Assembly: GCF_006345805.1 (NCBI RefSeq)
Contig: NC_043003.1
Span: 53,878,001 to 53,942,000, forward strand
Origin: Octopus sinensis
Taxonomy: Eukaryota
Direction: 5' to 3'
DNA: 64,000 bases
This document shows positions 2,261-60,811 of the stretch, in pieces. Under the pieces are notes generated by a model. That model had not been told where the DNA came from. It made no database searches and saw only the letters and a program-made list of their open reading frames with translations. Positions within the stretch are counted from its first letter, which is position 1. The number at the start of each line of letters is the position of its first letter. A program made the position numbers and the translations under genes.

Positions 2261-2311
2261 TTCTTACTGATGAAGCAGCGGAAATTGCCGAAACTGAATT
2301 CAGTATAAGGA
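2261..2311 (+). ncRNA. Type I hammerhead ribozyme motif
   Basis: stem I TTCTTA/TAAGGA; CTGATGA 2267-2273; stem II GCAG/TTGC after an A.C mismatch; GAAA 2290-2293; palindromic stem III ACTGAATTCAGT; cleavage triplet GUA (H=2305). Confidence 0.85.
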
Positions 2312-2669
2312 ATTCTCGAACGGCATTTTCGGACGATTATAGTTCCTGTCCGTATATATGTATACAATTTTGCGTTTTGACTACAGCATATAACATTTTA
2401 ACTCTTATTTCTAGCAGTATAGGTGTTTCTGACAGCCTAGGCGCGTTTAGTGACAATTATAGTTTTCGTTTTTGGTAAACATTGCAAACTACCGTATTTA
2501 TTAATTATATATGTGTGTGTGTATGTGTATATATATATATATAATATATATATATATATTATAATATATGCACATACATACATACATACACACATACATA
2601 CATACATACATACATACATACATACATACATACATACATAGAGACAGACAGACAAAGAGACGAGCACTC

Positions 2670-2794
2670 CCACATGACTCCGTGTTCAGTCCCACTGCGT
2701 GACATTTTGGATAAGTGTCTTCTGCTATAGACTCGAGCCGATCAAGGCCTTGTGAATGGAATGTGGTAGATGGAAACTGAAAGAAACCCTGTCG

Positions 2795-2796
<2 letters not shown>
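2670..2796 (+). mobile_element. SINE family A, 5' part
   Basis: CCACATG..GTTCAGTCCCACTGCGTG..GGAAACTGAAAGAA..GTCGTA. Confidence 0.8.
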
Positions 2797-2825
<29 letters not shown>

Positions 2826-2826
<1 letters not shown>

Positions 2827-3206
2827 ATTTTATTCTTCTGTTTGTTTCAGTCATTTGACTGCGGCCATGCTGGAGAACTGCCTTTAGTCGAACAAATTCA
2901 CCTCAGGACTTATTCTTTGTAAGTCTAGTACTTATTTATCGATATCTTTTGCCAAACTGCTATGTTACGGGGACGTAAACACATCAGCATCGGTTGTCAA
3001 GTGATGGTGGGGGACAAACACAGACAAACAAACACACATATACGACGGGCTTCTTTCAGTTTCCATCTACTAAATCCACTCACAAGGCTTTGGTCGGCCC
3101 AAGGCTAAAGTAGAAGACACTTGGCCAAGGTGCCACGCGGTGGGACTGAACCAGGAACCATGTAGTTGGTAAGCAAGCTACTTATCACACCGCCACTCCT
3201 GCGCCT
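2826..3206 (-). mobile_element. SINE family A, full length
   Basis: head AGGCGCAGGAGTGGCGGTGTG.., CORE-like CCTTGG.CAAGTGTCTT, tail CCAGCATGGCCGCAGTCAAATGACTGAAAC. Confidence 0.9.
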
Positions 3207-3229
3207 ATACTTTACCACACAGCCGATCA

Positions 3230-3460
3230 TGTGTGTGTTTGTGTGCGTGTGTGTCTGTGTTTGTCCCACACGACCGCTTGATAAGCGTTGTTGGGATGTT
3301 TACGTTCCCGTTTGGCAAAAAAGTGCCTGAAAGAATTATTATTAGGCTACAAAAACCCCCCAAAAAATAATAAAAACAAAAACATTACTGGCATCGATTC
3401 ACTCAACGAAAATTCTCCAAACCAAGGCCTCAGCATGGCCGCACTCTACTCGAGGAACCA
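3230..3460 (+). mobile_element. SINE family A, 3' half (diverged)
   Basis: GTGTTTGTCCC..GCTTGA..TTTACGT.CCCG..CAGCATGGCCGCA. Confidence 0.7.
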
Positions 3461-4202
3461 AATTTTATGTATACATATTAGTCCACTACCAATAAGATGA
3501 TGATGTGACTAAAAGAAAAAAAATCGACAGAAGATCTTTAGTAAAATAAAAAAAAAATATATATCGATTTTATCGGAAACAAATTTTGTTTATATAGACA
3601 TTTTAAGTGATTGTAGCTTCCTCTGTTGTTGACTTTATTTCTAACATAAACACATACGCGCATGCGCATGCACATACACATACACATGCATGCGCACACA
3701 CTCTCATGCACATAGAAATATGCTTGCAAACTCTTACATACAAGCATTCGTGTAGCATCAGATCATTAATGTTGTTTGATCCTTGAAGCTTCTTTTATTA
3801 CGCACATAAATATACATAAATACTCCCACACATATACGGACATAGAGCATCCCCCCTCTCTCTCTGTGTCTTTGTCTCTCTCTCTCTCTCTCATACATAC
3901 ACACACACACTTATTTACAAACACGCACAGCTACTTGGTAGTTGAAATTAAATATTTGCGATTAAAATTCCTTGAAGTTTACGGGAGTTTCTGTATGAGT
4001 GTACGAATTATTATGTGTATACAGAAGGCAAAATTTTCACCCAAATTGCTCATTGAAGATTTTCAAAAATTTCTCGACATATTGAATAAACATATTCCGA
4101 GGTCCATTTTGTTGACTAGAAAGTGAGCAAGAAATATGATGATCACGGCCAGAACGCCTTTGATCACATGTTTATTTAATCATGGTTGAATCTGGTGCTA
4201 GA

Positions 4203-4620
4203 TATCATCATCATCATCATCGTTGTCATCGTCATCGTCAATGTCGTCGTCATCATCATCACCTTTACCATCATCGTCATCCCGATCTTTATCATCGTCA
4301 TCATCACCGTCATCATCGTAGTTGTCCATTTCCTCCTCCTCCTTCACCTTCTCCTCCTCCTCCTCCTTTTCCTCGTCCTCGTCCTCCTCGTCCTCCTCGT
4401 CCTCCTCGTCCTCCTCGTCCTCCTCCTCCTCGTCCTCCTCGTCCTCCTCCTCGTCCTCCTCGTCCTCCTCCTCGTCCTCCTCGTCCTCCTCGTCCTCCTC
4501 CTCGTCCTCCTCCTTTTCCTCCTCCTCCTCCTCCTCCTTTCCCTCCCCTCCTTTCCCTCCTCCTCCTCCTCCTCACCACCCTCTTCTTCCGTCTCTTCCT
4601 CCCCCACCCTCTTCTCCATC
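4203..4620. repeat. (CAT)n then (CCT/CGT)n trinucleotide low-complexity tract
   Basis: direct reading; source of the poly-H, poly-P, poly-S and poly-R ORFs. Confidence 0.95.
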
Positions 4621-4621
4621 C

Positions 4622-4835
4622 CTGTGTGTGTATTTGTGTCTTTGTCCCCTACCACTGCTTGACAATCGGTGTTGGTATATTTACATCCCCGTAGCTAGCG
4701 GTTCAGCAAAATAGACGGACAAAATAAGTACCAGGCTTAAAAAAAGGACTGGGATCGAGTAATTCGACTGAAAATTCTTGAAAGCGATGCCCCAGCATGG
4801 CCGCAGTCTAGTGACTAAAACAAGTAGTAAATAAG
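4622..4835 (+). mobile_element. SINE family A, 3' half
   Basis: TTTGTCCCC..GCTTGACAATCGGTGTTGG..CCCCAGCATGGCCGCAGTCTAGTGACT. Confidence 0.8.
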
Positions 4836-4976
4836 TTTAAAATATAGAAGCTCTCTCCTTTTCTCGTGCCTTTCCACCGACTTTGAATTGGGTTTTGTAG
4901 AATTTATATATTCAAGTCACTTCTATTCGAGCAGACCCATGATCAGATCTTTTCCTATCGTAATTTTTAAAGAGAC

Positions 4977-5387
4977 CTTACTCTTTTACTCTTTTATTTG
5001 TTTCAGTCATTTGACTGCGGCCATGCTGGAGCACCGCCTTTAGTCAAGCAAATCGACCCCGGGACTTATTCTTTGTAAGCCCAGTACTTATTCTATCGGT
5101 CTCTTTTGCCGAGCCGCAAAGTGACGGGGACGTAAACACAGCAGCATCGGTTGTCAAGGCAATGCTAGGGGGACAAACACAGACACACAAACATATACAC
5201 ACACTTATATATATATATACATATATACGACGGCTTCTTTCAGTTTCCGTCCGTCTACCAAATCCACTCACAAGGCATTGGTCGGCCCGGGGCTATAGCA
5301 GAAGACACTTGCCCAAGATGCCACGCAGTGGGACTGAACCCGGAACCATGTGGTTGGTTAGCAAGCTACTTACCACACAACCACTCC
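4977..5387 (-). mobile_element. SINE family A, near full length, little diverged
   Basis: complete head, body and tail with (GAGTAAAA) tail repeats. Confidence 0.9.
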
Positions 5388-6064
5388 AGACATTGCTGTT
5401 ATTATTAACATAATAAGCGATCATATGTATGCTCTCTTTTTAGTTCCTAAATTTTTGGTTTAGAGAGAAAATTCAACGTAGCTTGGGAAATGACAGAAAT
5501 AAATAACTGTGAAGATAGTATCACCTTGATTCAATCATAGTTGAAATATATGTGGCAAAGTTTGAAGAGCAAAATCCTTTCAATGGAATTAGATGAGGAA
5601 ATTGATAGTTTTGCATAACGGTAGAACATATATAGAAATTTGTGTTTTCATCAGTAATTCATTTAATTAATTAATCAGACTGAAAATTCTTCCTTTGTTA
5701 TTTTATATGTAGTCTTCGACACTAGAATCCACTGAGGTTTGTTTTATATTTGGGTCTTTTGACCTTTTTGAAAGTCAATATTTTCTTATAAAGTCAATTT
5801 AATTGTTGACACTAATCAGAGAAAAACAAATCTGTGTTTGCTGGAGTAATTTATTACAATAATTGTCGAAAGATAGATAATCTTAAAGCTCTATTAAAAC
5901 CAAATCTACAAGAATTACATTGAAGTTAAGTAAATGATTTGCCTTACAAAGTTTAGATTTATTTATATTATTAGACTATCAGTGATCATTTGTTCAAATG
6001 TGAATGTCGAGTGTTATGAAAAATTTATCGTTAGAGCACTCATCTCTTGAGAATACGGTGATGG

Positions 6065-6260
6065 CTATGAAGCTAGCGAGTTGTTAGAGACTCGGTTTGA
6101 ATGTCTTGTATTTGTCCTGGCTTTCTGAGTTCAAATCCCACCGAAGTAAACTTTTCCTGTCATTCTTTGGAGGCGGTTAAATAAAATAGTATATAGTCAC
6201 ATATTGGATTCGTTTCTTTTCTTCTTTCCTCCCTACCCCACTCTCTCTTATAATTTGCTT
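6065..6260 (+). mobile_element. Old Nin-domain-like SINE (family D) copy
   Basis: CTGAGTTCAAATCCCACCGAAGTAAACTTT.CCT.TCATTCTTT..GG.. resembles the family D sequence. Confidence 0.5.
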
Positions 6261-12139: not shown

Positions 12140-12140
12140 C

Positions 12141-14459: not shown

Positions 14460-15247
14460 TACAGGACACAAGGCCTGATATTTTAAGGCAAAGGGTTTAA
14501 GGATTATATTGACACCACTGCTCAACGGGTGCTTATTTTTCCTTCTCCGGGATGATGAAAATCAAAGTCGAACTAGTTGCATTTGTACTCAGAACGTAAA
14601 GCCGGATGAAATATCGCTAAACATTTTGTCCGTGGTGATAATGATTCTTATTTCTTTACTGCCCACAAGGAGCTACACACAGAAGAGACAAACAAGGACA
14701 GACAAATGGATTAAGTTGATTATATCGACCCCAGTGCGTAACTGGTACTTATTTAATCGACCCCGAAAGGATGAAAGGCAAAGTCGACCTCGGCGAAATT
14801 TGAACTCAGAACGTAGCGGCAGACGAAATACCTATTTCTTTACTACCCACAAGGGGCTAAACACAGAGAGGACAAACAAGGACAGGCAAACGGATTAAGT
14901 CGATTCTATCGACCCCAGTGCGTAACTGGTACTTATTTAATCGACCCCGAAAGGATGAAAGGCAAAGTCGACCTCGGCGAAATTTGAACTCAGAACGTAG
15001 CGGCAGACTAAATACCTATTTCTTTACTACCCACAAGGGGCTAAACACAGAGAGGACAAACAAGGACAAGTAAACGGATTAAGTCGATTCTATCGACCCC
15101 AGTGCGTAATTGGTACTTGATTTATCGACCCCGAAAGGATGAAAGGCAAAATCGACCTCGGCGGAATTTGAACTCAGAACGTAACGGCAGACGAAATTCC
15201 GCTAAGCATTTCGCCCGGCGTGATAATGATTCTGCCTGCTTGCCGCT
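14460..15247 (-). mobile_element. Nin-domain-like SINE family D with three 184-bp internal tandem units
   Basis: CCCCGAAAGGATGAAAGGCAAA at 14761, 14945 and 15129 (period 184); minus strand GCCTTTCATCCTTTCGGGGTCGAT..AAGTACC is a Nin-type core; tRNA-like head at 15180-15247. Confidence 0.85.
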
Positions 15248-20150: not shown

Positions 20151-20537
20151 AGTAAAAACAATTGATATGGAAGATAGAATGTACTAGAAACTTTATTTGT
20201 CACAAAGATCGTTTCGACACATCCTGCACTGCACTGCTCCGTCGTAGGTAGGAGACTATAAAATGAATTCCAATGGCTTCTCGTTACATAATTTGCGTTT
20301 CATTATTAAGCTTACCTAGAGCATGTTGATAGAAGTCGCATCTAAAATACATTGAGGAGGAATGTAACGAGAACCCAAGTTGTATCATCTGAAGAGATGC
20401 TTCTGCACTGCGGGGTACACTGGAATTCATTTTATAGCTTTTCACCCACGAAGGAGCAGTGCAGGATGTGTCAAAACGATAGTTGTGATAAATAACGTTT
20501 CCAGTAGTTTCTCTCTTCTGTATTAATTGTTTCTACT
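20151..20537. mobile_element. Fold-back element (~120-bp diverged inverted arms) carrying decayed hammerhead motifs, PLE-terminus-like
   Basis: arms 20151-20272 and 20421-20537; arm consensus TCAC-CYACGA..GAAACGATCGTT-GTGA; inner hairpin TTCTCGTTACAT/ATGTAACGAGAA. Confidence 0.7.
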
Positions 20538-21534: not shown

Positions 21535-22170
21535 CATATTTTCAGAATTTCACTTTGAGATTGCAATATCCTAATTAACTGCGTTCTTTTTAGTTTTATG
21601 GACGCCAACTCCTCAACATTAGTGCTGAGATACTTAGTTACATGTCCAAGTGTCTTAATAGTCAGTAGTATAATTCTAACGTTAAAGGCTCTTTCCCTTT
21701 TGACTTTAACATTGTGCTGTATCGGACAGTTGATTTCTACTACTGCTCACTCTTTTTTTCCTCTATACTAGATCACTACTCGGTCTTTTATGTCGACATA
21801 TGAAAAGGATTTTGACGGGAACATTCCTCAAGTATTCCTTAATAATTTTGGTGAGTATGCTTACCACATCATTAATTTCTTATATCTATTTTATCTCCCC
21901 AACTATCCTTTTCTATACATTGCATTGCGAGTATACGCTTTTGTCTGGTGTTTCGCCCGCGTCTCTATCCACATTATGCATAAGATATTTTGCTATTTCC
22001 TTTTCCTGGATTTCAAAATCATACAGTTCAACTTGAGAGCTACTATATCCGTTGTTCCAAGACAGAGCAGTGTGGTAATGTTACTGTTTACTCTGAAGTT
22101 TTTGACAACATATCTTCTGCTCGATCTTCTGCTGATACGTGACAAAGGTGGTGATCTGATATTTTGTTGA
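21535..22170 (-). pseudogene. R4/Dong-like REL non-LTR retrotransposon C-terminal relic
   Basis: minus strand SWNNGY..SSQVE..FEIQEKEIA, then NVPVKI..CRHKRP(D)..VVEINCP..HNV (a PD..E-type REL motif), heavily frameshifted. Confidence 0.6.
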
Positions 22171-22189
22171 GGTAGAGCTGTGTGAATTG

Positions 22190-22450
22190 TATGCAAGTAT
22201 TTCTTTCTTAGAGAATAATCTAAGTTCTTCGCAGAATTCAAACTGGTTGCAAACAAAACTATCCGCGTTCAATAAGACCATATTACATAACGCCTTTGCA
22301 GTTCCAGTGCTAGAACCAAAATTTGGGATTCTAAAATTAGACATCAAAATTAAGAATATTCTGGCCCTCATTGATAGTTTTCTATCTACAGTAACACTGA
22401 AAATATCAATGTCTAAAAGAAAGATAGAAGGAGAAGCAAGAAGTCGGTTC
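22190..22450 (+). pseudogene. R4/Dong-like RT thumb relic, inverted relative to the adjacent C-terminal piece
   Basis: QTKLSAFNKTILHNAFAVPVLEPKFGIL resembles the NK..AIN.FAVPV..Y.FGI thumb motif of R4-clade RTs. Confidence 0.55.
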
Positions 22451-22949
22451 AGAGAATCTTTAGGTGCCGTTCGGTACCACACTTAGGGAATTATAAAGAG
22501 AGAAATGAGTATATATACTCCTATTCAATAGTGATAATAATTTTTCAGAAGAGGTGAAGAACTGAATAGTTACTCCAAGCAATTCTATTTCACCTGATTT
22601 AAGACTGGATGGATTAATCAACTTAAACAGAAACTTGGTGGAGAAAATCTCACCATAACAGTATGAAGTTACACATGGATACAAATGTCACAAATGAGAG
22701 GATACCAACAATCTTGACTAAGAAAGCAGCTTCTCCTCAAACTGTGATATCAAATTCCACCTAGAAGGATACGCATGTTGCTATTCTGGAATAGAAAATA
22801 ACTATTGCGTATCGCATCACTAAGATACAGAAAGATACTTCCAAACATCCATGTTATGTCAGAAATTGCGAATTGTGCTATATTACGGTATCTTGTGTAA
22901 CACAAATAGAATAAGCATGAAAAGTGTATGTACGGTGGAATCATGTAGT

Positions 22950-24984: not shown

Positions 24985-25377
24985 GACTTGTAGCATTGTC
25001 AATGGTAGTAGAATGGTCAAGTGTCCACAGCGGGTCACTTGACCATTCTACAACGATCCACAGCGAGCAGTTGTCCATTTAACATACTACTGTCATGGCA
25101 CTCCCACATTCTTCTTCTTCTTCTTCTTCTTCTTCCCTACCAAGAATTCACAACGACTACGAACCCACAACAGTACACAAGAGAGACAGAGACAGGCAGA
25201 AACAAGAAAAATGCCACTTGTATTTGAACTCTATGCAAATATTCTTATAAAAAATACTTATTTTAATTTTTCCAAAATTTAATTGTTTTCCATACTTACA
25301 GTTGAAAAAGTCTCAATGACTGAAACCGGTACTGAAATGTTTTTTATAAAATTATTTTCGCATTTTGACTCTCCCTT
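24985..25377 (+). mobile_element. Non-coding PLE-derived element between (TA)n tracts
   Basis: 16-bp perfect hairpin at 25008-25051, HHR at 25299-25334, and a 3' end CTCTCCC followed by a TA-rich tract, like the PLE end at 53803. Confidence 0.6.
25299..25334 (+). ncRNA. Minimal type I hammerhead motif, U3-A8 core variant
   Basis: CAG-TTGAAAA-AGTC(TCAAT)GACT-GAAA-CCGG-TA-CTG; stem II perfect, stem III palindrome ACCGGT, stem I only 3 contiguous bp. Confidence 0.65.
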
Positions 25378-25462
25378 ATATTATATATATATATCTATAT
25401 AATATATATATATAAATATATGAAAGAATGGAGTTGAACGACGAATTAACAAAATTCCTTTA

Positions 25463-25544
25463 TTTTCGACATATGTTTCGAAGGCTGCATATTCCTAATT
25501 GCGAAGGAATAAGGAGTTATTATGCCGCTTTCTCATCAGGAAAA
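25463..25544 (-). ncRNA. Type I hammerhead ribozyme motif with long stem II
   Basis: minus strand TTTTC-CTGATGA-GAAAGCGGCATA..TATGCAGCCTTC-GAAA-CATATG-TC-GAAAA; palindrome ACATATGT; GUC site (H=25468). Confidence 0.88.
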
Positions 25545-25620
25545 GCAAGAAATTTATGTCAACATCAAGATGCACAAAAAAACTTTTAGATGACTGCTTA
25601 CACGGAGCCCATAGTGAATT

Positions 25621-25797
25621 ATATATATATAATTTTTTTTATTAAATATATAACTTATAACTAGATCTCAAAAAGTATGAAATGAATGATAAATATATAA
25701 TATATGTAAAAACATATTATATATTTATCATTCATTTTATACTTTTCGAGATCTAGTTATAAGTTATATATTTATATAAAAAAATTATATATATATT
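25621..25797. repeat. AT-rich ~175-bp palindrome
   Basis: TAACTTATAACTAGATCTC.AAAAGTAT.AAATGAATGATAAATATATAATAT and its reverse complement around a centre at ~25709. Confidence 0.85.
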
Positions 25798-25864
25798 TGT
25801 TATTTATGTATTGGTTTAGGTCTATCTCTGTTTGAGTTGCATAATAACGGTTTTATCTCTAATT

Positions 25865-25902
<38 letters not shown>

Positions 25903-26282
25903 TTCATTTGGGTTTTAACACTGGAATTTATTCTATTAAGCTCATCCACAGACCCATACTATCATACAGATGGTAATCCGGAGATTGCTTGTTATATCAA
26001 ACGCATGGCTGCATGCCTGAAATTCCACAAATAACAGCATTCATGAAGTGTGTATGTATCATGAGTGCTCGCTCATTTTCTTTGAAGCACGCGTAGGAAC
26101 TATAATATAAACTTGCATTTATCCTTATTTTTCCTTCTTTTGCATTCTAGTTCATAACTAGTAGCATTACTTTGTATAAGAGTCACTTAACAACTATAAG
26201 CGAAGTAGAATGGAATACGATAATCTTCGTGAAACTCTAAATATAACAGTAGCATTCGTACATCTATTTGTACACTCATTTT

Positions 26283-26317
<35 letters not shown>

Positions 26318-26792
26318 CAACAATTGAGGGTAAAATTAATTAATTAATCAATTTCACCAAGTATTCAGTATGCAAAGGGACCAATTAAGGCGAATTAAAA
26401 TAAATTAGTAAAATAAATTACTTTGCCGCATACTGAACTCATTAGAAATAATTTATTTTACTAAGCCCTTTTATATAATGTAATAATTTGAATCGCCTTA
26501 ATTGGTCCCTTTGCATACTGAATACTTGGTGAAATTGATTAATTAATTAATTTTACCCTCAATTGTTGAAATTATAATTCATCTCTCTCTATATAATGCC
26601 TCGGATTTTACCGAAAAAAGCATAGTGTTTACTGATTTTAACCCCGCTGGTGGAAAGGGGAGAGCAGAAATTCTTCGCTTGCATTTTTGAGTTTGCTGGC
26701 ACTGTTAGTTTCGAGCAGATCTTCAGAAGCGATAAGAAGCCGAAAGGGTATGCTCCCACTTTCAGTGTTTTCAAATCCAAACCAGGGAGTTC

Positions 26793-26845
26793 TGAGCTGA
26801 TGATAGAAATGTCGAGTTTGACTAATCTTGAAACGTACGTTCTCA
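26793..26845 (+). ncRNA. Type I hammerhead ribozyme motif (unit 1)
   Basis: TGAG-CTGATGA-T-AGA..GTC(GAGTTT)GAC..TCT-T-GAAA-CGTACG-TT-CTCA; palindrome ACGTACGT; GUU site (H=26841). Confidence 0.85.
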
Positions 26846-27352
26846 AATAACCTTTGCATTTGATTTTTTAATGTCTCTACCCCCATACTTTCGTGAGTTG
26901 AATTGAGCAAACACTATATGAGAGAGGTTTTCTTTAAGTATTAGAAATAGCTTTAAAAAAGTTTTTTTAGCTGCTATTTCTAATGAGTTCAGTATGCGGC
27001 AAAGTAATTATTTTACTAAGCCCTTTTATATAATGTAATAATTTGAATTCGCCTTAATTGGTCCCTTTGCATACTGAATACTTGGTGAAATTGATTAATT
27101 AATTAATTTTACCCTCAATTGTTGTTGAAATTATAATTCATCTCTCTCTATATAATGCCTCGGATTTTACCGAAAAAAGCATAGTGTTTACTGATTTTAA
27201 CCCACGCTGGTGGAAAGGGGAGAGCAGAAATTCTTCGCTTGCATTTTTGAGTTTGCTGGCACTGTTAGTTTCGAGCAGATCTTCAGAAGCGATAAGAAGC
27301 CGAAAGGGTATGCTCCCACTTTCAGTGTTTTCAAATCCAAACCAGGGAGTTC

Positions 27353-27405
27353 TGAGCTGATGATAGAAATGTCGAGTTTGACTAATCTTGAAACGTACGT
27401 TCTCA
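27353..27405 (+). ncRNA. Type I hammerhead ribozyme motif (unit 2)
   Basis: identical to 26793-26845, 560 nt downstream (H=27401). Confidence 0.85.
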
Positions 27406-27586
27406 AATAACCTTTGCATTTGATTTTTTAATGTCTCTACCCCCATACTTTCGTGAGTTGAATTGAGCAAACACTATATGAGAGAGGTTTTCTTTAAGTA
27501 TTAGAAATAGCTTTAAAAAAGTTTTTTTAGCTGCTATTTCTAATGAGTTCAGTATGCGGCAAAGTATTTATTTTACTAAGCCCTTT

Positions 27587-27623
<37 letters not shown>

Positions 27624-27665
27624 TATTATACATATATATATATATATATTTACATAAATAAGCAA

Positions 27666-27905
27666 TAAATTGAGAGATTCAATTGACAATCTAATAATAT
27701 ATTCATATTATAAGATAACATAAAAAATTATCTAAAAACCCCCAAAAGTCAACTATTTGTTTCGTCTTAAGATATATAAGGCGAAACAAATTGTTAGCAT
27801 TCTTGGTTCTTTAATAATTTTTTATGTTATATTATATTCATAGTATATTATGTTGTATTATAATGTAAATAAATTATTAGATTGTCAATTGAATCTCTCG
27901 ATTTA
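27666..27905. mobile_element. Fold-back of a PLE-like 3' terminus
   Basis: outer arms GAGAGATTCAATTGACAATCTAATAAT / ATTATTAGATTGTCAATTGAATCTCTC; central ATTTGTTTCGTCTTA / TAAGGCGAAACAAAT retains only the CGAAAC half of an HHR. Confidence 0.7.
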
Positions 27906-28116
27906 ATTTATTGTTTGTAATTTGCATTATTTCCTTATTTCTGTGCTATTGTACTGAAGTACCAGTGAGTTCGATGTTTTACACACCCCTAAGAAGGAAT
28001 TTCGTTCCTTAGTTTGTTACTTTAATACATACATACACATATACACACATACATACATACATACATACATACATACATACAACATACATACATACATACA
28101 TACATACATATGTATA

Positions 28117-28360: not shown

Positions 28361-28431
28361 ATGCAGGACCGGTTTCTGACTCTTCAAATACGTTTGACAA
28401 CGTAGATTTGGTTTGTCTTCATCAGCTGCAT
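28361..28431 (-). ncRNA. Type I hammerhead ribozyme motif with extended stem II
   Basis: minus strand ATGCAG-CTGATGA-A-GAC..CAAAT.TACGTT(GTCA)AACGTA.TTTG..GTC-A-GAAA-CCGG-TC-CTGCAT; 6-bp stem I, palindrome ACCGGT, GUC site (H=28367); host element ~28170-28455 between (TA)n tracts. Confidence 0.9.
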
Positions 28432-29403: not shown

Positions 29404-29836
29404 ATTTAAAGAATAATTTTTTGTAACTAAACACTTTCAAACTTCGTATACTGGTAGAATGTGTCATATAAAACACCTTTTACTCTTAGTGTTTTTGAGA
29501 AAAGTTTATGTTTATAAAGTTATTTTGTATTGAAGTTCTTGTATTTTGGTAATTTCAACCAATCAATGACGTGTATTGAGCTGAATAAAATTACTGCCGC
29601 TGTTTGTCAACAAGAACTTCCGGCGGTGTATATTTCGTTTGTCACTGCTATTTATTACAACCCTAACTCTAAAACCCTAACCCTAACCTTAAAACCTTAA
29701 CCCTAACCCTAAAACCCTAAGGCTAACACTAACACCCTAAGCCTAACCCTAACACCCTAACCCTAAACCTAACACTAACCCTAAAACCTTAAAGCTAAAA
29801 CCAGTACAAACGCACGAACAATGTCATAAATAACAG
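29404..29836. mobile_element. Truncated putative non-autonomous DNA transposon carrying a telomere-like tract
   Basis: begins TTAAAG (TTAA followed by RR, Kolobok-like; weak evidence); inverted motif CTGCTATTTATTACA / TGTCATAAATAACAG brackets the CCCTAA tract; right side cut by a SINE. Confidence 0.4.
29659..29802 (+). repeat. Degenerate interstitial telomeric repeat (CCCTAA)n
   Basis: aaccctaactctaaaaccctaaccctaa.. about 20 variant units. Confidence 0.9.
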
Positions 29837-35591: not shown

Positions 35592-35980
35592 AGCTGGTAG
35601 AATCGGTTGCATACCAGAAAAAATCGCTTAGCGGTATTTCGTCTGCGTTACGTTGTGAGTTCAAATTCCGCCGAGGTCGACTTTGCCTTTCATCCTTTCG
35701 GGGTCGATAAATTAAGCACCAGTTACGCACTGGGGTCGATGTAATCGACTTAATACCTATGTCTGTCCTTGTTTGTCCCCGCTGTGTTTAGCCCCTTGTG
35801 GGTAATAAAGAAAAAGGTATTTCGTCCGTCCTTACATTCTGAGTTCAAACTCCACCGACATCAATTTTGCTTTTCTTCCTTTCGAAGTCGATAAAATAAA
35901 TACTAGTTTAACACTGGGGTCGATCTAATAGACTTAACCCCACCCCGTCATTGCTAGCCTTGTGCCAAAATTTGAAACCA
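35592..35980 (+). mobile_element. Family D (Nin-like) SINE, ~1.7 internal units
   Basis: GAGTTCAAATTCCGCCGAGGTCGACTTTGCCTTTCATCCTTTCGGGGTCGATAAATTAAG. Confidence 0.88.
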
Positions 35981-36206: not shown

Positions 36207-36653
36207 CATTATTTACACAGGACGGACACGTGCCCTCATTCTGTTTCGGCTGATTTAACGTTTCGGCTGATTTACTCTCCAGCCTTCATCAGGTGTTCTG
36301 GTAGGGTTTTGAACCCAAACCTGGGTTCTCAGTCCTAAGGTATTTTCTTGCTGATATCATTATTAGTATTATTATTTGTTCAAGGCACTGCCTGAAATTG
36401 AACTCGTAAACTTGGAGTTTGTAGCCCGCGCTCTTAACCATTGAATAAATAATGATACTAATAATAATAACATCAGTAAAAAATACCTTAGGAATGAGAA
36501 CTCAGGGTTGGGTTCAAAATTCTATCTGGACACCTGAAGGCTGGAGAGTAATTCAGCCGCAACGTTGTGGTAACAGCAAACAAGATGAGGACACATATCC
36601 ATCCAATGTAAATAATGTATAGAATTCCTCATCTCTAAAATATAGAACAGTGA
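36207..36653. mobile_element. Fold-back SINE with tRNA-like head and hammerhead-bearing PLE-like tail, inserted in a family D SINE
   Basis: inverted arms ~36207-36381 and 36442-36617; central tRNA-like segment 36382-36440 (minus strand TGGTTAAGAGCGCGGGCT..GAGTTCAATT); minus strand ACAC-CTGATGA-A-GGCTG..CAGCC-GAAACGTT at 36257-36296; CACTTATTTT duplicated at 36197 and 36654. Confidence 0.75.
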
Positions 36654-40740: not shown

Positions 40741-42125
40741 CTTTGATACTTTGATACTTTGATAGGTTTCGGCCATTATTGGCCCAGGCCATGTCTAACT
40801 TAATAGCACCACCTGGTGAAGTCTTTCAAGTCAGAATTTGGGCACTATGGCCCACTCAAGTAGAGAGTTATTGTTTACAGAGACATATCCGGGTGTAGGG
40901 GTTTATCCGGGATTTCTTGAAGGAATCTGTCCAAGACTTCTTGAACCCTATAGGGTCAGTTTCTGTTTTAATGTGTTTTGGTGTAATGTTAAAGAGAGCG
41001 GGCCATTGAGGTGAAATAATTGTGCCGTATTGTTGTTATGAGATGAGAGTGCGATTTTTGTTTTGGGCGGATGGCACGGGGCCCAAGCCTTGTGTACCTT
41101 AAAGGTGATGCCAACATCATTTGGGCAATGCGATGGAATATTTCCACATCATGCAGATGATGTAGCGCTCACGACGACGTTGGAGAGAATAGAGTTTTAG
41201 CTTTTCTAGTCGACCCCCAATAGTCGAGGCCTGTCATGCCATCTATCTTTTTTGTGATTCCCTTTGAGGTGCTTCGACTTTTATGATACCTTGTATTGTG
41301 TGGGGAGACCACAGTGGACAACAGTATTCAAGGTGGGGTCGGGCAAAAGTGGAGAAGAGAAGGATAATGGTGTGGATATCTCTCGACTGGAAAGTTCTGA
41401 GAATCCAGGAACACATTCTGCGGGCCATGTCAACTTTGGTGTTTATATGAGTGGCCCAGCTTACGTTGTTGTCCACAATTACTCCCAAGTCTCTGATGTT
41501 GTTGGACGCCGTGAGAGTTTCACCTGAAGGAAGGGAGTATGGGTTTTTCAGGGCATCCTCTTTTCCAAAGTGGATTAGCTCAAATTATCCTCGTTCAGCA
41601 GCATATTGTTTTTTTCTGCCCATTGGATAACAGCCAGTAGATCTGACTGAAGGCATGTCCGGTCACTCGCCTCATTTATGACCTCTGTAGCTTGGAGTCA
41701 TCTGCAAAGATTTTTATGTTGCTGTGCTTGATGATGTCATTAATGTCATTAATGTAATGATGAAAAGAAGTGGGCCCAGCACAGTGCCTTGCGGAACGCC
41801 CTACTGACTTTGGCTGGGCTTGATTTTACCCCTTCAACTACAACATGTTGAATCTGTCTGTCAGGAAACACTTAATCCATTTCAGTAACTTTCCAGAGAC
41901 CCAATGTTGGATAGTTTTTTCAATAGGATCTTGTGATCGACCCTGTCGAAGGCCTTACTGAAATCAAGGTAGATACATCGGTGTTGGAGCCCTCTCCAAA
42001 AGCTCTCAAAATGTCCTCAAAGTGATGCAGGAGCTGCGTTAGGCAGTCCCTTCCATTACGGAACCCATGTTGGTTGGAGATCAGCCGTCTGTTGCTTTCC
42101 AGGTGTAAGCCGTCTGTTGCTTCCA
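40740..42125 (-). mobile_element. 5'-truncated CR1-group LINE (RT to 3' end), frameshifted
   Basis: [67 protein letters not shown]; 3' tail (TATCAAAG)3 at 40741-40764. Confidence 0.92.
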
Positions 42126-44978: not shown

Positions 44979-45044
44979 GTAGCTCAGTGGTAGAGCGTTC
45001 GCTTTGCATGCGAAAGGCCCTGGGTTCGATACCCAGTATCTCCA
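44979..45044 (+). tRNA. tRNA-Ala(TGC) sequence lacking its first ~6 nt (pseudogene/retrocopy)
   Basis: GTAGCTCAGTGGTAGAGC D arm; TTCGC-TT-TGC-AT-GCGAA anticodon arm; CTGGG-TTCGATA-CCCAG T arm; 3' acceptor strand TATCTCC-A; 5' acceptor strand replaced by (TATC)n. Confidence 0.85.
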
Positions 45045-47850: not shown

Positions 47851-47902
47851 CCGAATAAGCTAATCACCATGTCACGCCCCTTCATATATATATGTACGTA
47901 CA

Positions 47903-48164
47903 TACGAGGGGTGTATGAAAAGTCTTGAGCCTCAAAAAAACAAAACATGGTACAAGACTTCTGATGAAGGTACAAGACTTCAAGGCTCAAAACTTTTCAT
48001 ACACCCCCTCGTATAGACTTCTGATGAAGGTACAAGACTTCAAGGCTCAAAACTTTTCATACCACCCTCGTCTATATATATATATATATATATTATATAT
48101 ACGAGGGGGTGTATGAAAAGTTTGAGCCTTGAAGTCTTGTACCTTCATCAGAAGTCTTGTACCA
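47903..48164. mobile_element. ~110-bp mariner-type MITE (47903-48013) plus partial direct (48014-48072) and inverted (48100-48164) duplications
   Basis: TIRs TA-CGAGGGGTGTATGAAAAG / CTTTTCATACACCCCCTCG-TA. Confidence 0.85.
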
Positions 48165-49309
48165 TCACACTCATACCTCAACTACTCTTCCTCCCACCCA
48201 GAACACACACCAAGCTTTCCATCCCCTATTCCCAATCCTCCGTCTACGTAGGCTCTGTAGTGACGACCATGCTTTGAGACTCAGTCTCAACGTATGGCTC
48301 ACCACTTCACCCTACGTGATACCCCCTCACCACTATCCACACCGCCCTTGCCAGAGCATGGTCCGTGGACCGTGTATCTGCTCTCTCTCCCCGAACCCGC
48401 CCTGTAGTCTCCCGCCTCCCTTTTCCCCTCACTTACCACCCCACGACCTACCTCTCCAACGCACCATTCTTCGAGCTTTCCGTCATCTTCCAGTCCGACC
48501 GTCCACTTCACACCCCTCTTCCCTAACCGACCCCTCCCCTCTTTCAAACGAGCCCACAACCTTCGAGACCTTTTGGTCCATAGCTCCTCCCTGACCATAC
48601 CTCCCAACCCGGCTCGTTCCCCTGCTCCCGCCACACGTTGCTGCACTTGCCCTTACCTCTCTAACACCACCCTCCTCACTAGCACCCATCATCGACCCAT
48701 CCCATCATCCACTCCTTCACCTGCACCTCCAGAATATTATCTATTGCGTCTCTTGCTCTCTCTGCCATTCCTTGTACATCGGACAAACGGGACGCCGCTT
48801 GGCTGACCGGTTCGCGGAACACCTTCGTGACATCCACCTTGCGAACGACACACCGGTCTCTCGCCATTTCCGCTCCACCGGTCACTCCTTGCAACACCTA
48901 TCTGTGTTCGGTTTGTCCTTACACAGAGGCCATCCGGATTCCCGTTTGCGCCGTGAACAGGAATTAATCTTCTCTCTCGCTCTTATACGCCATTTGGTCT
49001 CAACTCCCCCCCACCCCCCCCCCTCCCTCATCTAACTCCCCTCCTCCCTCCTCCTCCACCTACCTTTCCCCCCGACCCCTACTTCTTCAGTCCTTCATCC
49101 TTTCACCCCTACCCCCTTCCCTTCTCCCCCTTCCCTCTTCCCCTTCCCTCTGCTCCCTCACTCCCCTTCTCTCTGTCCCCTCTCCCCCTCCCCCTTACTT
49201 CTCCCCCCTCCCCCTTACTTCTCCCCCCTCCCCCCCTCCCCTCCCCTCCCCCTTTCTCCTCTCTCCACACTACCCACACGACTTTACACTTCACATCATA
49301 TATGATGTG

Positions 49310-49854: not shown

Positions 49855-49892
49855 TCTTTCTGTTGAAGAGCGTAGGCTCGAAACGTTAAAGA
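49855..49892 (+). ncRNA. Minimal type I hammerhead motif, A6U core variant
   Basis: TCTTT-CTGTTGA-A-GAGC(GTAG)GCTC-GAAA-CG-TT-AAAGA. Confidence 0.75.
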
Positions 49893-50008
49893 CTTGTTTT
49901 ATTTATATTTCCTGAGCGCCATACTAATACAATTGTTTGTTCGTTTTCCACCTGCCTTCTTCTTTTGTCTATTTTCATAAAGCTTCCCGTTATATATATA
50001 TATATATA

Positions 50009-50141
50009 TATGAGGGGCATATGAAAAGGCTTGAGCCTAAAAAAAAACAATAAAACAATAAAACAAAGACTTCTGATGAAGGTACAAAACTGCAAGGTTC
50101 AAAGGCCTTGAAGGCTCAAAACGTTTCATACATCCCTCGTA
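50009..50141. mobile_element. Second, more diverged copy of the mariner-type MITE
   Basis: TGAGGGGCATATGAAAAGG..CGTTTCATACATCCCTCGTA. Confidence 0.8.
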
Positions 50142-50149
50142 TATATGTA

Positions 50150-50692
50150 AGATTTTCGAACCCCTCCTCGTTCTTGGCCACCGGCTCGGTATTGGTGTTG
50201 CAGGCAGAGCGGCTGTTGTCATTCTCAACAGCGCCTCACACAGAGTAATCCATGGGTTCAACCGAGAGAATTAGGAGGCCGGATATTGGTGTTGGTGAAT
50301 TCTTAGAAATCCCCCGACAACTACTTCTGGCACTTTCCGGGGATATATCAACGAACCGAATCCTACTGTCAGAAATACGGCCCTGAAGCAGCAACCCTCT
50401 CCAGTCAGATTTTGATCACAGTCACCAGCAGTTTCACATAGTCGTCTGAACTGATCCTAAAGATGTGAGGAATTCTGGCTTGCTGACACAGTCAGAACAC
50501 CTACTGTGTCCCTCTCTGCAGGCCACGATTTTGTAGCCTCTGTTGCAGCTGTCCTTATCAGATCTTATAGCCTTCACATTGTTCATAGAGCATTGAGCAG
50601 CAGTCATAATATGGCCATTTTGATACACGGCGTGCATCATTATGATACAGGTAATTCTTTTCCAATATTCAAATGACTTCCTGTCCGGCATG
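50150..50692 (-). pseudogene. DD37D/maT transposase relic, internally deleted
   Basis: minus strand YVKLLVTVIKI*LERVAASGPYF*Q*DS..PPNSL.LNPMDYSV*GAVE..CNT, compared with QQDSAP..WPPNSPDLNP.DY. Confidence 0.8.
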
Positions 50693-51258
50693 TCAGCTAT
50701 CAACAGACTGCGTAGGAGAACAATATACCCCCACTATTGTTGAAATAAATTATAGATAAAAAAAAGAGAGGCTGTTGTTAACATGATACCGGCAACTTAA
50801 TAGACGTTTTATGTTAAAACTACACCACTTTAACGATACAGAGACCATGTCTACTGATGCGTGTGTAAGTAATTATCCCGCCAACAGGAAAAAATTATAT
50901 ATGTATTAACGAATACTTAAAGACTTGTCCTGTGCGTGCGTGTATGCGTACGTACATGTATGTGTGTGTGTGTGTATGTGTGTGTGTGTATGTGTGTGTG
51001 TGTGTATGTGTATGACCACACACATAATGAACTTATAGTAGTTCATACAGTATCAGTATCCTTCTATTATAAGAGGGAAAATATACATTTGACTGGAAAC
51101 ATTAAATAAATAAATCTTCAGCTTATTTCCAGCAACCAGTGTGCGCCCCCAACCATCCACACATACATACATGCACTCACACACACGCGCGCGCACACAA
51201 ACACAGCAACACACACACTAATATATACTTACAACACAGACGCTGTCATATATGTCTG

Positions 51259-53279: not shown

Positions 53280-53803
53280 ACCCACAAACCGCAACTCTAC
53301 CGACTCAACCGAACCCACACCCCACCCGTGCTTTCCCCACTCTCGCATCCCCCACCTCCCAACAACATCACACTACACCATACAACATTACACATCACAT
53401 CACAACACACCACCCACACACCCATCCCCACATTTTCACACCTACACATACATACACGCACACGTGCAGACCACCAGCCCTCTTTCACACGCACGTACAT
53501 ACTCTCTTATACACACATGCACCTTCGTGTTGGGGGTCATCTTCACTTTGTTATCTCCCCTACTTCTTCCCTCTCGCGTGTGACCCTTCTGTCCGAAGTC
53601 AGTCGCCATGATAGATCGTTAGCCACTACACACATTTTATTCTCTCCTTGTTTCTCTCCTTGATTTTTCTGTGTCCCTTTCTGTAGAAGAGCGTAGGCTC
53701 GAAACGTAAAAGACTTTTTCTATTCCTGAGCGTTATACTAATACATCTGTTTGTTTTGTACCACCACCTGTCTTCGTCTTTTCTTTTTTTCGTAAACTCT
53801 CCC
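53280..53803 (+). mobile_element. 3' UTR fragment of a related Penelope-like element
   Basis: homologous to 49690-49990; ends AAACTCTCCC-(TA)n. Confidence 0.8.
53677..53712 (+). ncRNA. Minimal type I hammerhead motif, A6U core variant
   Basis: CTTT-CTGTAGA-A-GAGC(GTAG)GCTC-GAAA-CG-TA-AAAG. Confidence 0.75.
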
Positions 53804-56872: not shown

Positions 56873-56935
56873 ATGGCGGTGCCCCAGCATGGCCACAGCT
56901 CAAGAGCTGAAACTGGAAAACATAAAACATAAAAC

Positions 56936-56940: not shown

Positions 56941-56978
<38 letters not shown>

Positions 56979-58249: not shown

Positions 58250-58410
58250 CTAATAAATAAAAACACGTCCATAAAGTCAAAGACAACTATTACATAACAC
58301 AGAAATAACAAAGTAAATCGAATACGGCATAAGCTTAAAGTGACTACGTCAACGTTTCGGAGATTAGCCAGTCTTCAAAAAGAAGACCTAACATTAATTT
58401 TCTCCGATTG
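58250..58410 (-). mobile_element. PLE-terminus-like fragment retaining the 3' half of an HHR
   Basis: minus strand GGAGA..(hairpin GTCTTC/GAAGAC)..TCTCC-GAAACGTT-GACG; no CTGANGA upstream. Confidence 0.45.
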
Positions 58411-58444
58411 ATTTATAAATTAAGGGTATGTATGCATGAACATA

Positions 58445-58597
58445 TACGACGGGCCGTCATCACATTTCATACAAATGATAATGGTCAGGCCGAGACTAAT
58501 TTAGAAAACAGTGGTTCAAAGAATCGCACAGTAAAACCGAACTTGGAAATACATGGTTCTAGAATGAAATTCTCAACCACGTAACAATGCCTGCGTT
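58445..58597 (-). mobile_element. Old SINE family A head
   Basis: TACGACGGGC..ACATGGTT..CAACCAC..GCCTGCG. Confidence 0.55.
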
Positions 58598-59249
58598 CAA
58601 TACAATTTAAACTTTAAACCTGTTCATGGGAACAACAAAACAAGATGATCACAACTGCAGGGTATTTAATCATAGATTGCTCAGTCAGAGTTTGACCTGT
58701 ATTTAAACAAAACCTGCAATAACAAAAGAACAATAACAGCAAACACAACAAAAAATTGTGCCCTTGTGCCAATGCTAGAAAACTATTATTAGTTTATGTA
58801 TTTGCTCTGTATATATATTTATTCACACGCATACGCTCACACATGAACGTGTGTGCATGTGTATGCACGTTTGTGTTTGTGCGTGTGTATGTGCGTCTGT
58901 GCGTCTGTGTGTGTATGTCTGTGTGTGCTTGGACGGCATAATTGACATTGTGTTTGCTGGAATTGATTTAAAGTTAAGCCATAAAATCTTGATTCTATTT
59001 TAACAAGCAATAAATAAACACAACGGGAATTAATTTAGAAATATCGATAAAATATTTAATTGAACGGTTTCTAATATGAGATTAATGATTTCATTATTAA
59101 GACAAAAAGCAAAGCAAAATGAAAAAACAAAACAAAAACCAACAAATATCATAAAAACTCCAAAATGAACGGTTATGATACATGGCAACATTTTCGTTTT
59201 GTTTATCCGCTGTCAAAGGTGATAATCTATCTGTCTGTCTGCCTGACTG

Positions 59250-59325
<76 letters not shown>

Positions 59326-59476
59326 CCTATTTATCTGCCTGTCTGTCTGTATGCATGAGTGTATACATCTGAATAATTATATATACATATACAAATACAT
59401 GCATATATATGTATATATATATGCATTTACATGTATATATGTGTATATCTTTCAATGGGAGAATGTAAATATATAT

Positions 59477-59509
<33 letters not shown>

Positions 59510-60019
59510 CTGTAAGTAAATTCCTCTATGTACATAGTATCGAGATATTCTTCTTTTGTTGTCTTACCGTTTTTATCAATATATATATATATATACATAT
59601 ATATGTATACATACACATATAATTACATAATGCATATATATGTGTGTGTGTGTGTATACTTTACATAATTACGTTTATATATACACGTATAAACATACTC
59701 ATATACAGAAACATATAGACGTGAACATATATCGCAACACACACTCACACACATATGCGGTGAGTGAGTTTACATGAGTTCGCGCGCGCGTATGTGCATA
59801 TGTAGATCTTCATACACACTCGTACAACTATATGAATTCATGTACCAATAACCCGTTGCACATTCGAACGTAGATATACGCACACGAAAATATGATAATC
59901 TATACAAATGGTGTAAGAAGACGATTACATAATGAATTACTCAATACAAAAAGTGAAACTCTTTTTCAGTTGAATACAGGCTTTACGTATATATACGTAT
60001 ATATATATATATATATATA

Positions 60020-60062
<43 letters not shown>

Positions 60063-60081
60063 TCATATATATATATGTACG

Positions 60082-60140
<59 letters not shown>

Positions 60141-60143
<3 letters not shown>

Positions 60144-60201
60144 CGTAGGAGTGGCTGTGTGGTAAGTAGCTTGCTTACCGACTGCACAGTTCCGGGTTCA
60201 G
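60141..60201 (+). mobile_element. SINE family A head fragment
   Basis: AGGCGTAGGAGTGGCTGTGTGGTAAGTAGCTTGCTTACC..CCGGGTTCAG. Confidence 0.85.
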
Positions 60202-60365
60202 GTATTTGAAGTTGGTAGAAACTCTCTTGAGAATGCTATTACGAAAAATATATGACGCCATATTGTATTTAAACAACATTCTGATACTAACAAAAGACAG
60301 CGTACTTACGTAAATATTTTAATATTCTAATATTACGTCGTATATATATATATATATTATATATA

Positions 60366-60410
<45 letters not shown>

Positions 60411-60415
<5 letters not shown>

Positions 60416-60811
60416 GAGGGTAAAATTAATTAATTATTAATCAATTTCACCAAGTATTCAGTATGTAAGGGGACCATTTAAGGCGAATTCAAATTATTAC
60501 ATTATATAAAAGGGCTTAGTAAAATAAATTACTTTGCCACATACTGAACTCATTAGAAATAGTAGCTAAAGGAGTTCTGAGCTGATGATAGAAATGTCGA
60601 GTTGACTAATCTTGAAACGTACGTTCTCAAATAACCTTTGCATTTGATTTTTTAATGTCTTTACCCCCATACTTTCGTGAGTTGAATTGAGCAAACACTA
60701 TATGAGAGAGATTTTCTTTAAGTATTAGAAATAGTTTTAAAAAAGTTTTTTTAGCTACTATTTCTAATGAGTTCAGTATGTGGCAAAGTAATTTATTTTA
60801 CTAAGCCCTTT

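What the first reader, a model, noticed from the sequence alone, without database searches (positions are those of the whole stretch)
2261..60629. Dense set of microsatellite-targeted hammerhead elements with family-specific palindromic stem III
Seen: 8 complete type I folds (2261+, 25299+, 25463-, 26793+, 27353+, 28361-, 49855+, 53677+), a ninth copy at 60578+, and broken ones at 20.2-20.5, 27.8, 36.3-36.6, 56.3 and 58.4 kb. They fall in about 6 families with unrelated flanks. Each stem III is self-complementary (ACTGAATTCAGT, ACCGGT, ACATATGT, ACGTACGT, ACGT), and most hosts are non-coding and end in (TA)n. Established: PLEs and metazoan non-LTR retrozymes carry minimal type I HHRs that cleave as dimers via palindromic stem III. 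Inference: a large cephalopod radiation of PLE-mobilised ribozyme elements in which the palindrome restricts dimer partners. The unrelated 25.3 kb and 28.4 kb families share ACCGGT and could cross-activate. If the window is intronic, these motifs could cut host pre-mRNA. I cannot check whether these families are already catalogued.
Basis: partly seen in the sequence, partly recalled or inferred. Interest (0 to 1): 0.8.

Follow-up and report, generated by a model that had tools for sequence, protein, structure and literature searches.

The report
Penelope retroelement hammerhead ribozyme remnants
The self-cutting-RNA (hammerhead) motifs are really in the DNA and are likely the leftover ends of Penelope-like jumping genes, an already described kind; their self-complementary stems are shared between some families, so they are not a family code by themselves, and cutting is untested.

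Summary
Real but known. All nine type I hammerhead motifs are present. A strict descriptor finds 6 sites, all 6 with a palindromic helix III although it was not asked for; 200 shuffles average 0.47 sites and 0.035 palindromic ones. 'Complete' is overstated: two copies carry A6→U, five have a faulty base of stem II, and only the 25.3 and 25.5 kb motifs lack a flaw. They sit in high-copy repeats with Penelope-like (PLE) marks: a broken RT-thumb/zinc-finger/GIY-YIG frame 0.8 kb upstream of the 49855 motif, inverted truncated partners, and (TA)n flanks (8 of 9 insertions). Cervera and de la Peña 2014 already describe many families per genome, palindromes up to 10 nt and the U3-A8 core. The palindrome is not family-specific (two pairs of families share one); partner choice also needs stem I, and incompatibility between unrelated helices is the default. 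Intronic cleavage could not be tested. Extras: a retrozyme-like 560-nt tandem, the A6U family, and a candidate scrambled (type-SGC) hammerhead at 1.9 kb, outside the finding. The scan noted these kinds before, in this genome and others.

The parts
2261..2311 (+). Family A type I hammerhead: canonical core 2267-2273, 12-nt palindromic helix III, GUA site (H17 2305), 6-bp stem I, mismatch or bulge at base of stem II; (TA)n on both sides
25299..25334 (+). Family B: U3-A8 core 25302-25308, 4-bp stem II, 6-nt palindrome, GUA site (H17 25331), 3-bp stem I; high-copy repeat
25463..25544 (-). Family C: canonical core 25539-25533, 53-nt stem II region, 8-nt palindrome, GUC site (H17 25468), 5-bp stem I; tail to tail with B across one (TA)n tract
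26313..27592 (+). Family D insertion: inverted 5' segment (26318-26450) plus two 560-nt tandem units (98.8% identical), in (TA)n; non-coding, retrozyme-like
26793..26845 (+). Family D hammerhead, unit 1: canonical core, U·U at base of stem II, 8-nt palindrome, GUU site (H17 26841)
27353..27405 (+). Family D hammerhead, unit 2, identical to unit 1; the natural cis-dimer partner
28361..28431 (-). Family E: canonical core 28425-28419, A·A at base of a 42-nt stem II region, same 6-nt palindrome as B, GUC site (H17 28367), 6-bp stem I; (TA)n on both sides
48145..49035 (+). 5'-truncated, frameshifted PLE frame: RT thumb, Cys-rich linker, GIY-YIG with CxxC and HF motif
   Evidence: tblastn E 1.6e-20 whole window; 2.6e-23 on the sub-region
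49855..49892 (+). Family F minimal hammerhead: A6→U core, extra A before a G-C 4-bp stem II, loop-less 4-nt palindrome, 5-bp stem I; 0.8 kb downstream of the GIY-YIG frame
53677..53712 (+). Family F second copy, also A6→U, differing at N7 and H17; 84% identical to the first over 409 nt
60412..60817 (+). Family D second insertion: inverted segment plus 5'-truncated unit with hammerhead 60578-60629, in (TA)n
36207..36617 (.). Family G inverted pair: minus copy has intact core (36292) and stem II but has lost the 3' strand of stem I; plus copy (about 36531-36569) has a core deletion; 4-nt palindrome as in F, different stem I; no (TA)n nearby
20151..20537 (.). Decayed inverted pair; plus copy keeps a core at 20389 and a long worn stem II
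27650..27920 (.). Fold-back of two truncated arms, each with only the GAAA/helix III half
58315..58370 (-). 3' half of a hammerhead, 83% like family D over 48 nt; core absent
1916..1990 (-). Outside the finding: candidate type-SGC hammerhead (site 1990-1979, GAAA 1969, core 1945-1939; stems I 5 bp, II 4 bp with 2 G·U, III 6-7 bp; 5-bp extra helix 1957-1953 with 1916-1920)

Best explanation
These are real type I hammerhead motifs in several high-copy repeat families, likely the 3' pseudo-LTR ends of truncated Penelope-like elements and of non-coding passengers that likely use the same enzymes. In an active tandem element two copies on one transcript would swap strands: the palindrome pairs with its twin to build helix III, each 5' stem I strand pairs with the other copy's 3' strand, and cleavage after the NUH site would release a unit-length RNA for ligation and reverse transcription. 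The element's GIY-YIG nuclease likely nicks (TA)n tracts, and early termination with template switching likely leaves the short, inverted 3' stubs seen here. Most single copies are predicted to be silent because they lack a same-strand partner or carry core or stem II flaws. Only the 26.8/27.4 kb tandem is a plausible cis-dimer substrate. Palindromy follows from homodimerisation; differences between families likely reflect separate descent rather than a selected code.
For: Shown: motif enrichment and 6 of 6 unprompted palindromes. RT-thumb/linker/GIY-YIG remnant upstream of family F, whose best relative is a 932-aa RT + GIY-YIG protein. Inverted truncated partners at five loci. (TA)n bias. Summed contig depth in run X1 of about 2e5-1e6 over most of families B, C and D against about 1e2-7e2 in the gap at 25.9-26.3 kb, same contrast in the other three runs (the tool warns that depth is no copy number). 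None of the 40 substitutions listed there falls in a core or helix III; the one inside a stem I keeps a U·G pair. Homodimer helices give -12.6 to -33 kcal/mol. Monomer helix III is unfavourable or impossible in 6 of 7 motifs tested. Literature: PMC4209133; 10.1101/2021.04.23.441226 for inverted copies and (TA)n bias.
Against: A PLE protein remnant was found for one family only; two query proteins hit nothing near A-E or G. No cleavage, RNA ends or circles were observed: all runs laid were contigs and none is on record as RNA. 72 further substitutions were not shown, so conservation of cores and palindromes is only weakly tested. A-E have 6-12-nt helix III and B-E lack the unpaired nucleotide before a G10.1-C11.1 pair, so they fit the strict minimal consensus less well than F and G. 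No target-site duplications were found at three loci tested.
Confidence: 0.82

Rival explanations
1. Families with 8-12-nt helix III (A, C, D) are non-LTR retrozymes: short non-coding tandem repeats that cleave as monomers or dimers and circularise, with PLEs only as mobilisers. This is compatible with the best explanation for family D.
For: D is a non-coding tandem, 35% GC, with circular MFE -150 kcal/mol, z -6.9 against 40 shuffles. Invertebrate retrozyme hammerheads with short helix III cleave as monomers (PMC7229834). U10.1·U11.1 is a known tolerated mismatch (PMC3088659; axolotl).
Against: The 560-nt unit exceeds the reported 150-450 bp. The z-score is partly due to internal inverted repeats. 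A and C are single copies here. Monomer MFE folds of A, C and D are not hammerhead-shaped.
Confidence: 0.4
2. The palindrome, together with stem I, is a selected address code that stops co-existing families from cross-activating, with B and E as a real cross-talking pair.
For: Between-family duplex totals are -6.3 to +1.3 kcal/mol for all pairs except B x E (-20.8). B and E share 12 of 13 nt across helix III and the base of stem I.
Against: Unrelated helices are incompatible by default. Palindromes are shared within the window and across animals. Tandem transcription already supplies the partner in cis. B and E are on opposite strands.
Confidence: 0.1
3. The motifs matter to the host by cutting pre-mRNA of a gene that spans the window.
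For: Nine motifs in 64 kb on both strands; family C has a clean core and a GUC site; family A could form a 4-bp monomer helix III.
Against: No host exon identified. Published rates for PLE hammerheads are low even as dimers. The lowest-energy monomer fold of A pairs the palindrome with its own core.
Confidence: 0.05
4. Chance matches in AT-rich repetitive DNA.
For: Relaxed descriptors are not enriched in total (13 vs 8.3; 24 vs 19.2). Rfam finds none. Monomer folding z-scores are -1.2 to +0.8.
Against: Strict sites 6 vs 0.47 and palindromic 6 vs 0.035; GAA plus palindrome of 6 nt or more 12 vs mean 1.8, max 6 in 400 shuffles.
Confidence: 0.02

Closest known systems
Minimal and palindromic-helix-III type I hammerheads in pLTRs of metazoan PLEs (Cervera and de la Peña 2014, PMC4209133; read: main text parts 1-2 of 4, supplement file 2 part 2 of 3; file 1 not searchable)
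   Same: Type I; palindromic helix III of 4-10 nt; several consensus families per genome; mostly single dispersed motifs; opposite-strand pairs 100-700 bp apart; U3-A8 core; extra nucleotide before G10.1-C11.1 (families F, G).
   Different: A 12-nt palindrome (A) is longer than any in the rows read; long branched stem II in C and E; A6→U in F; no octopus rows found in the supplement file searched.
Lünse, Weinberg and Breaker 2017, PLE hammerheads that cleave as dimers (PMC5785218; not held, title seen in reference lists, summary seen in passages of PMC6765202)
   Same: Dimer cleavage through a short palindromic stem III.
   Different: Could not check whether it lists these families or tests heterodimers.
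Canonical C-terminal-endonuclease PLEs with a linker zinc finger, Neptune/Nematis type (Craig et al. 2021, 10.1101/2021.04.23.441226; passages)
   Same: RT thumb, Cys-rich linker, GIY-YIG with CxxC, then a hammerhead; inverted 5'-truncated copies; microsatellite bias.
   Different: Only a broken 3' third is present and for one family; clade not placed on a tree.
Metazoan non-LTR retrozymes (Cervera and de la Peña 2020, PMC7229834; section 14 and passages)
   Same: Family D: non-coding head-to-tail repeats, one type I hammerhead per unit, low GC, self-paired.
   Different: 560-nt unit; PLE-style inverted 5' segment; expression not shown.
Type-SGC hammerheads (Eckert et al. 2023, PMC10085705; passages)
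   Same: Site at 1916-1990: S-G-C order, 5-bp stem I, short linker from stem I to the stem II strand, extra helix joining the free sides of stems I and II.
   Different: Published ones come from metatranscriptomes; this is one genomic animal copy with a weak 4-bp stem II and no covariation tested.

Membership tests
PLE-type type I hammerhead | Core CUGANGA or U3-A8 variant, GAAA, NUH in type I order | tested here: met
   7 of 9 motifs; the two family F copies fail at A6
PLE-type type I hammerhead | Palindromic helix III | tested here: met
   9 of 9
PLE-type type I hammerhead | Unpaired nucleotide after A9 and G10.1-C11.1 pair | tested here: inconclusive
   Met in F and G; C has G-C without the extra base; B has A-U; D U·U; E A·A; A bulged
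PLE-type type I hammerhead | Self-cleavage as a dimer | not testable with these tools
   Only duplex energies computed; no raw RNA reads listed
Endonuclease-bearing PLE | RT followed by C-terminal GIY-YIG upstream of the hammerhead | tested here: met
   Family F only, 48145-49005
Endonuclease-bearing PLE | Same frame attached to families A-E and G | tested here: inconclusive
   No tblastn hit with two query proteins; truncation or another clade would give the same blank
Endonuclease-bearing PLE | Tandem pLTRs or inverted 5'-truncated partner | tested here: met
   D (both insertions), G, 20.2/20.4 kb, 27.7/27.9 kb; not seen for A, B, C, E, F
Endonuclease-bearing PLE | Insertion bias for microsatellites | tested here: met
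   8 of 9 insertions within 261 nt of (TA)5+ vs 27% random
Endonuclease-bearing PLE | Placement in the PLE RT phylogeny; retained intron | not tested
   RT core absent from the window
Non-LTR retrozyme (family D) | Head-to-tail non-coding repeats with one type I hammerhead per unit, GC under 45% | tested here: met
Non-LTR retrozyme (family D) | Unit of 150-450 bp | tested here: not met
   560 nt
Non-LTR retrozyme (family D) | Abundant linear and circular RNA | not testable with these tools
   Contigs only
Type-SGC hammerhead (1.9 kb site) | Blocks in S-G-C order with stems I-III, short I-II linker and interaction helix | tested here: met
   stem II is weak and the lowest-energy fold is different
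Type-SGC hammerhead (1.9 kb site) | Covariation across copies and cleavage at the predicted site | not tested
   One copy in the window; no relatives obtained (empty)

The most novel reading that the evidence does not exclude
This genome holds a radiation in which the ribozyme architecture itself diversified and stayed active: canonical and U3-A8 type I motifs, a family with a fixed A6U core, and a non-circularly permuted type-SGC hammerhead so far published only from metatranscriptomes, each keyed to its own partners by a joint stem I plus helix III address under selection against cross-talk.
Probability: 0.15. Interest if true: 0.7.

Novelty: new member of a known kind. Interest (0 to 1): 0.3.

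Why it matters
The in vivo role of PLE hammerheads is still open. A genome with many co-existing high-copy families is a ready test bed: homo- versus heterodimer assays and cleavage-end mapping could show whether the motifs cut, and whether partner choice is selected. The class itself is published, so the value lies in the catalogue and in two side leads, the A6U family and the SGC-order candidate. Searches for hammerhead ribozyme with octopus, hammerhead with cephalopod, hammerhead with A6U and non-circular permutation with retrotransposon listed no paper on these in cephalopods; the library lacks most subscription papers, and Repbase/Dfam could not be searched.

Tried and rejected
Rfam: no hammerhead at gathering thresholds; none among the 150 best of 523 E-value matches, which were microsatellite noise. 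No whole genome is held. Core-like heptamers at 47961, 48021, 48151 and 50073 lie in a small element with terminal inverted repeats (Tc1/mariner-like, label recalled) and fail the descriptor: rejected. 37696+, 26726- and 27286-, 17207-, 44790/44807- and 63596- have a core or a palindrome but not both with stems: rejected. A type II reading of the 1.9 kb site fails at stem I; the S-G-C reading fits. Its significance is mixed: pre-set loose thresholds give 0.57 hits per shuffled window over all six orders (0.09 for SGC, 100 shuffles); thresholds matched to the site afterwards give 1 hit of any order in 400. No RNA holder listed among sequencing runs. Exact-pattern scans for family F in metagenome and viral contigs: 0 hits. 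Family-wide variation for F and for the 1.9 kb site was not obtained, so whether A6U is fixed rests here on 2 of 2 copies. Host gene: the 108-aa frame at 22160 has no PDB or protein-database relative, only Atlas look-alikes at 0.93-0.94 with low recognition. A glutathione S-transferase-like stretch in family D is not significant (Pfam none, PDB E 1.5). No target-site duplications of 8 nt at three loci. PMC5785218 and PMC5850863 are not held.
Full report
Setting. The window is 35% GC animal DNA with 167 tandem-repeat rows, mostly microsatellites. No whole genome is held. I take it to be octopus-like from recall of its SINE-type repeats; no call names the organism.

Observation. All nine cited motifs exist. 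A descriptor asking for the core, GAAA, NUH, stem I of 4 bp or more and stem II of 3 bp or more, but not for palindromy, returns six sites (2267+, 25539-, 26797+, 27357+, 28425-, 60582+). All six have an exactly palindromic helix III. Two hundred block dinucleotide shuffles give 0.47 sites on average (max 3) and 0.035 palindromic ones (max 1); the reversed window gives none. Three of the six belong to one family, so four are independent. GAA followed by a palindrome of 6 nt or more occurs 12 times against 1.8 in shuffles (max 6 in 400). Rfam misses all of them.

Quality of the folds. 'Eight complete folds' is too generous. The 25.3 kb motif has the U3-A8 core and a 3-bp stem I; U3-A8 is a known active covariation (PMC3088659 section 8), and the same core is printed for a Schistosoma PLE. 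The 49855 and 53677 motifs both carry A6→U while differing at N7 and H17. The three family D copies have U·U at the base of stem II, a known tolerated mismatch; a related contig reads an A-opened, G-rich stem there (table 5c). The 28.4 kb motif has A·A and the 2261 motif a mismatch or bulge. Of six motifs folded alone, none gives the full three-way fold as its lowest-energy structure; B and E form stems I and II with the core open, and in A the palindrome pairs with its own core. With one core change allowed, total hits are not enriched (13 vs 8.3), so the broken copies are supported by context only.

What carries them. A frameshifted frame at 48145-49035 encodes an RT thumb, a Cys-rich linker and a GIY-YIG domain. 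It matches a 932-aa RT plus GIY-YIG protein at E 1.6e-20 and over residues 636-922 at E 2.6e-23 on the sub-region; Pfam GIY-YIG scores E 0.007, below its cut-off. The family F motif lies 0.8 kb downstream, and the second F copy shares the last 409 nt at 84%. The two query proteins hit no other part of the window at a meaningful E-value. Both family D insertions begin with an inverted piece of the element, and inverted partners of 85-87% identity occur at 20.2/20.4, 27.7/27.9 and 36.3/36.5 kb, the arrangement described for PLE insertions. A (TA)5+ tract lies within 261 nt downstream of 8 of 9 insertions, against 27% of random positions; A, C, E and both D insertions have tracts on both sides, which favours insertion into (TA)n over a synthesised tail. 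Family G is the exception. Contigs of four public runs (4 of 21 listed) laid on 25140-27580 give, in run X1, summed depths of about 2e5-1e6 over most of B, C and D and about 1e2-7e2 in the gap at 25.9-26.3 kb, with the same contrast in the other three. The tool warns this is no copy number, but it fits families of thousands of copies. None of the 40 substitutions shown falls in a core or helix III, and the one in a stem I keeps a U·G pair; 72 rows were not shown.

Mechanism. In a double hammerhead the two palindromes pair to form helix III, and each 5' stem I strand pairs with the partner's 3' strand (established; Fig. 1 legend and text of PMC4209133). Monomer helix III is unfavourable or impossible in six of seven motifs and favourable only in A (-1.8 kcal/mol), whereas homodimer helices total -12.6 to -33.0. 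Inferred: in an active tandem element two same-strand copies dimerise in cis and release a unit. In this window only the D tandem offers that. Its 560-nt unit (26842-27401) is 35% GC and folds as a circle at z -6.9, partly through internal inverted repeats, like a large non-LTR retrozyme. The two F copies are on the same strand but 3.8 kb apart with an altered core. Published activity of PLE hammerheads is low even as dimers. No cleavage was observed here.

The family-code idea. Cross-family totals are -6.3 to +1.3 kcal/mol for every pair except B x E, which reaches -20.8 because they share helix III and three stem I pairs. F and G share a 4-nt palindrome yet differ in stem I. In the 44 rows of the published alignment that I read, 24 carry that same palindrome, and 8-10-nt palindromes that differ between families appear in Aedes, Drosophila willistoni and Saccoglossus. 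Palindromy is required by homodimerisation and incompatibility of unrelated helices is the null, so nothing here shows selection for a code. A paper search with 'heterodimer' listed one review with no occurrence of the word.

Host effect. No exon was identified. The one non-repetitive 108-aa frame at 22160 has no confirmed relative. The intronic-cleavage idea is neither supported nor excluded.

Outside the finding. At 1916-1990 on the minus strand the hammerhead blocks lie in S-G-C order, with stems of 5, 4 (two G·U) and 6-7 bp, a 3-5-nt linker from stem I to the stem II strand, and a 5-bp helix joining the free sides of stems I and II. These match the type-SGC description (PMC10085705 passages). 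It is the only hit of a six-order scan. Loose thresholds give 0.57 chance hits per window; matched thresholds, set after seeing the site, give 1 in 400. The lowest-energy fold differs, and a split-core wiring noted by other agents in this genome (unchecked) is an alternative. I put it at about 0.6 to be a real scrambled hammerhead copy.

Prior record. The scan has noted dense palindromic PLE hammerheads in other genomes, and the A6U family and scrambled hammerheads in this genome. These are unchecked notes, used as leads only. A 2026 O. vulgaris repeat annotation lists 31 recently active Penelope-like families and does not mention hammerheads in its main text (PMC13282606, part 1 of 3 and term search). 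Other papers seen as passages only: PMC7151607, PMC6765202, PMC7761336.

Verdict. Real, likely ordinary PLE-type hammerheads: new members of a known kind, interest 0.3. The A6U family and the SGC candidate deserve bench tests.

Noticed in passing
window 1916-1990, minus strand: Candidate non-circularly permuted (type-SGC) hammerhead with short I-II linker and an extra 5-bp helix; an upstream 6-bp alternative for stem II suggests a possible split-core wiring.
   Followed up: partly
window 49855-49892 and 53677-53712: A6→U in both family F copies while N7 and H17 differ; the family is linked to a GIY-YIG frame.
   Followed up: partly
window 26640-26730 and the second unit near 27200-27290: Across one frameshift the family D unit reads like a glutathione S-transferase N-terminus over about 28 residues; not significant (PDB E 1.5, no Pfam hit).
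   Followed up: partly
window 2261-2311: The 12-nt palindrome repeats the start of the core, so in the lowest-energy monomer fold its 3' half pairs with the core: a possible built-in off state.
   Followed up: no
window 47878-48165 and 49986-50149: Small elements with terminal inverted repeats (Tc1/mariner-like, label recalled) containing a core-like heptamer without hammerhead stems; one abuts each end of the PLE remnant; a transposase-like frame (recalled) lies at 50434-50733 minus.
   Followed up: no
window 22160-22486, plus strand: 108-aa non-repetitive frame with Atlas look-alikes among mollusc and cnidarian hypothetical proteins (0.93-0.94) but no sequence relative; possible exon or old element.
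   Followed up: partly
window 14649-15197 and 35646-35940: 184-bp unit in three tandem copies (94%) with an inverted relative 20 kb away; SINE-like (label recalled).
   Followed up: no
window 44980-45036: Truncated tRNA-like sequence (Rfam 47 bits, model positions 8-63) directly after a (CTAT)n tract.
   Followed up: no
window 41243-41584 and 41920-42110, minus strand: Fragments that read like a LINE reverse transcriptase (recalled; Pfam gave no hit for the first).
   Followed up: no
window 29659-29799: Degenerate AACCCT telomere-like array inside the window.
   Followed up: no
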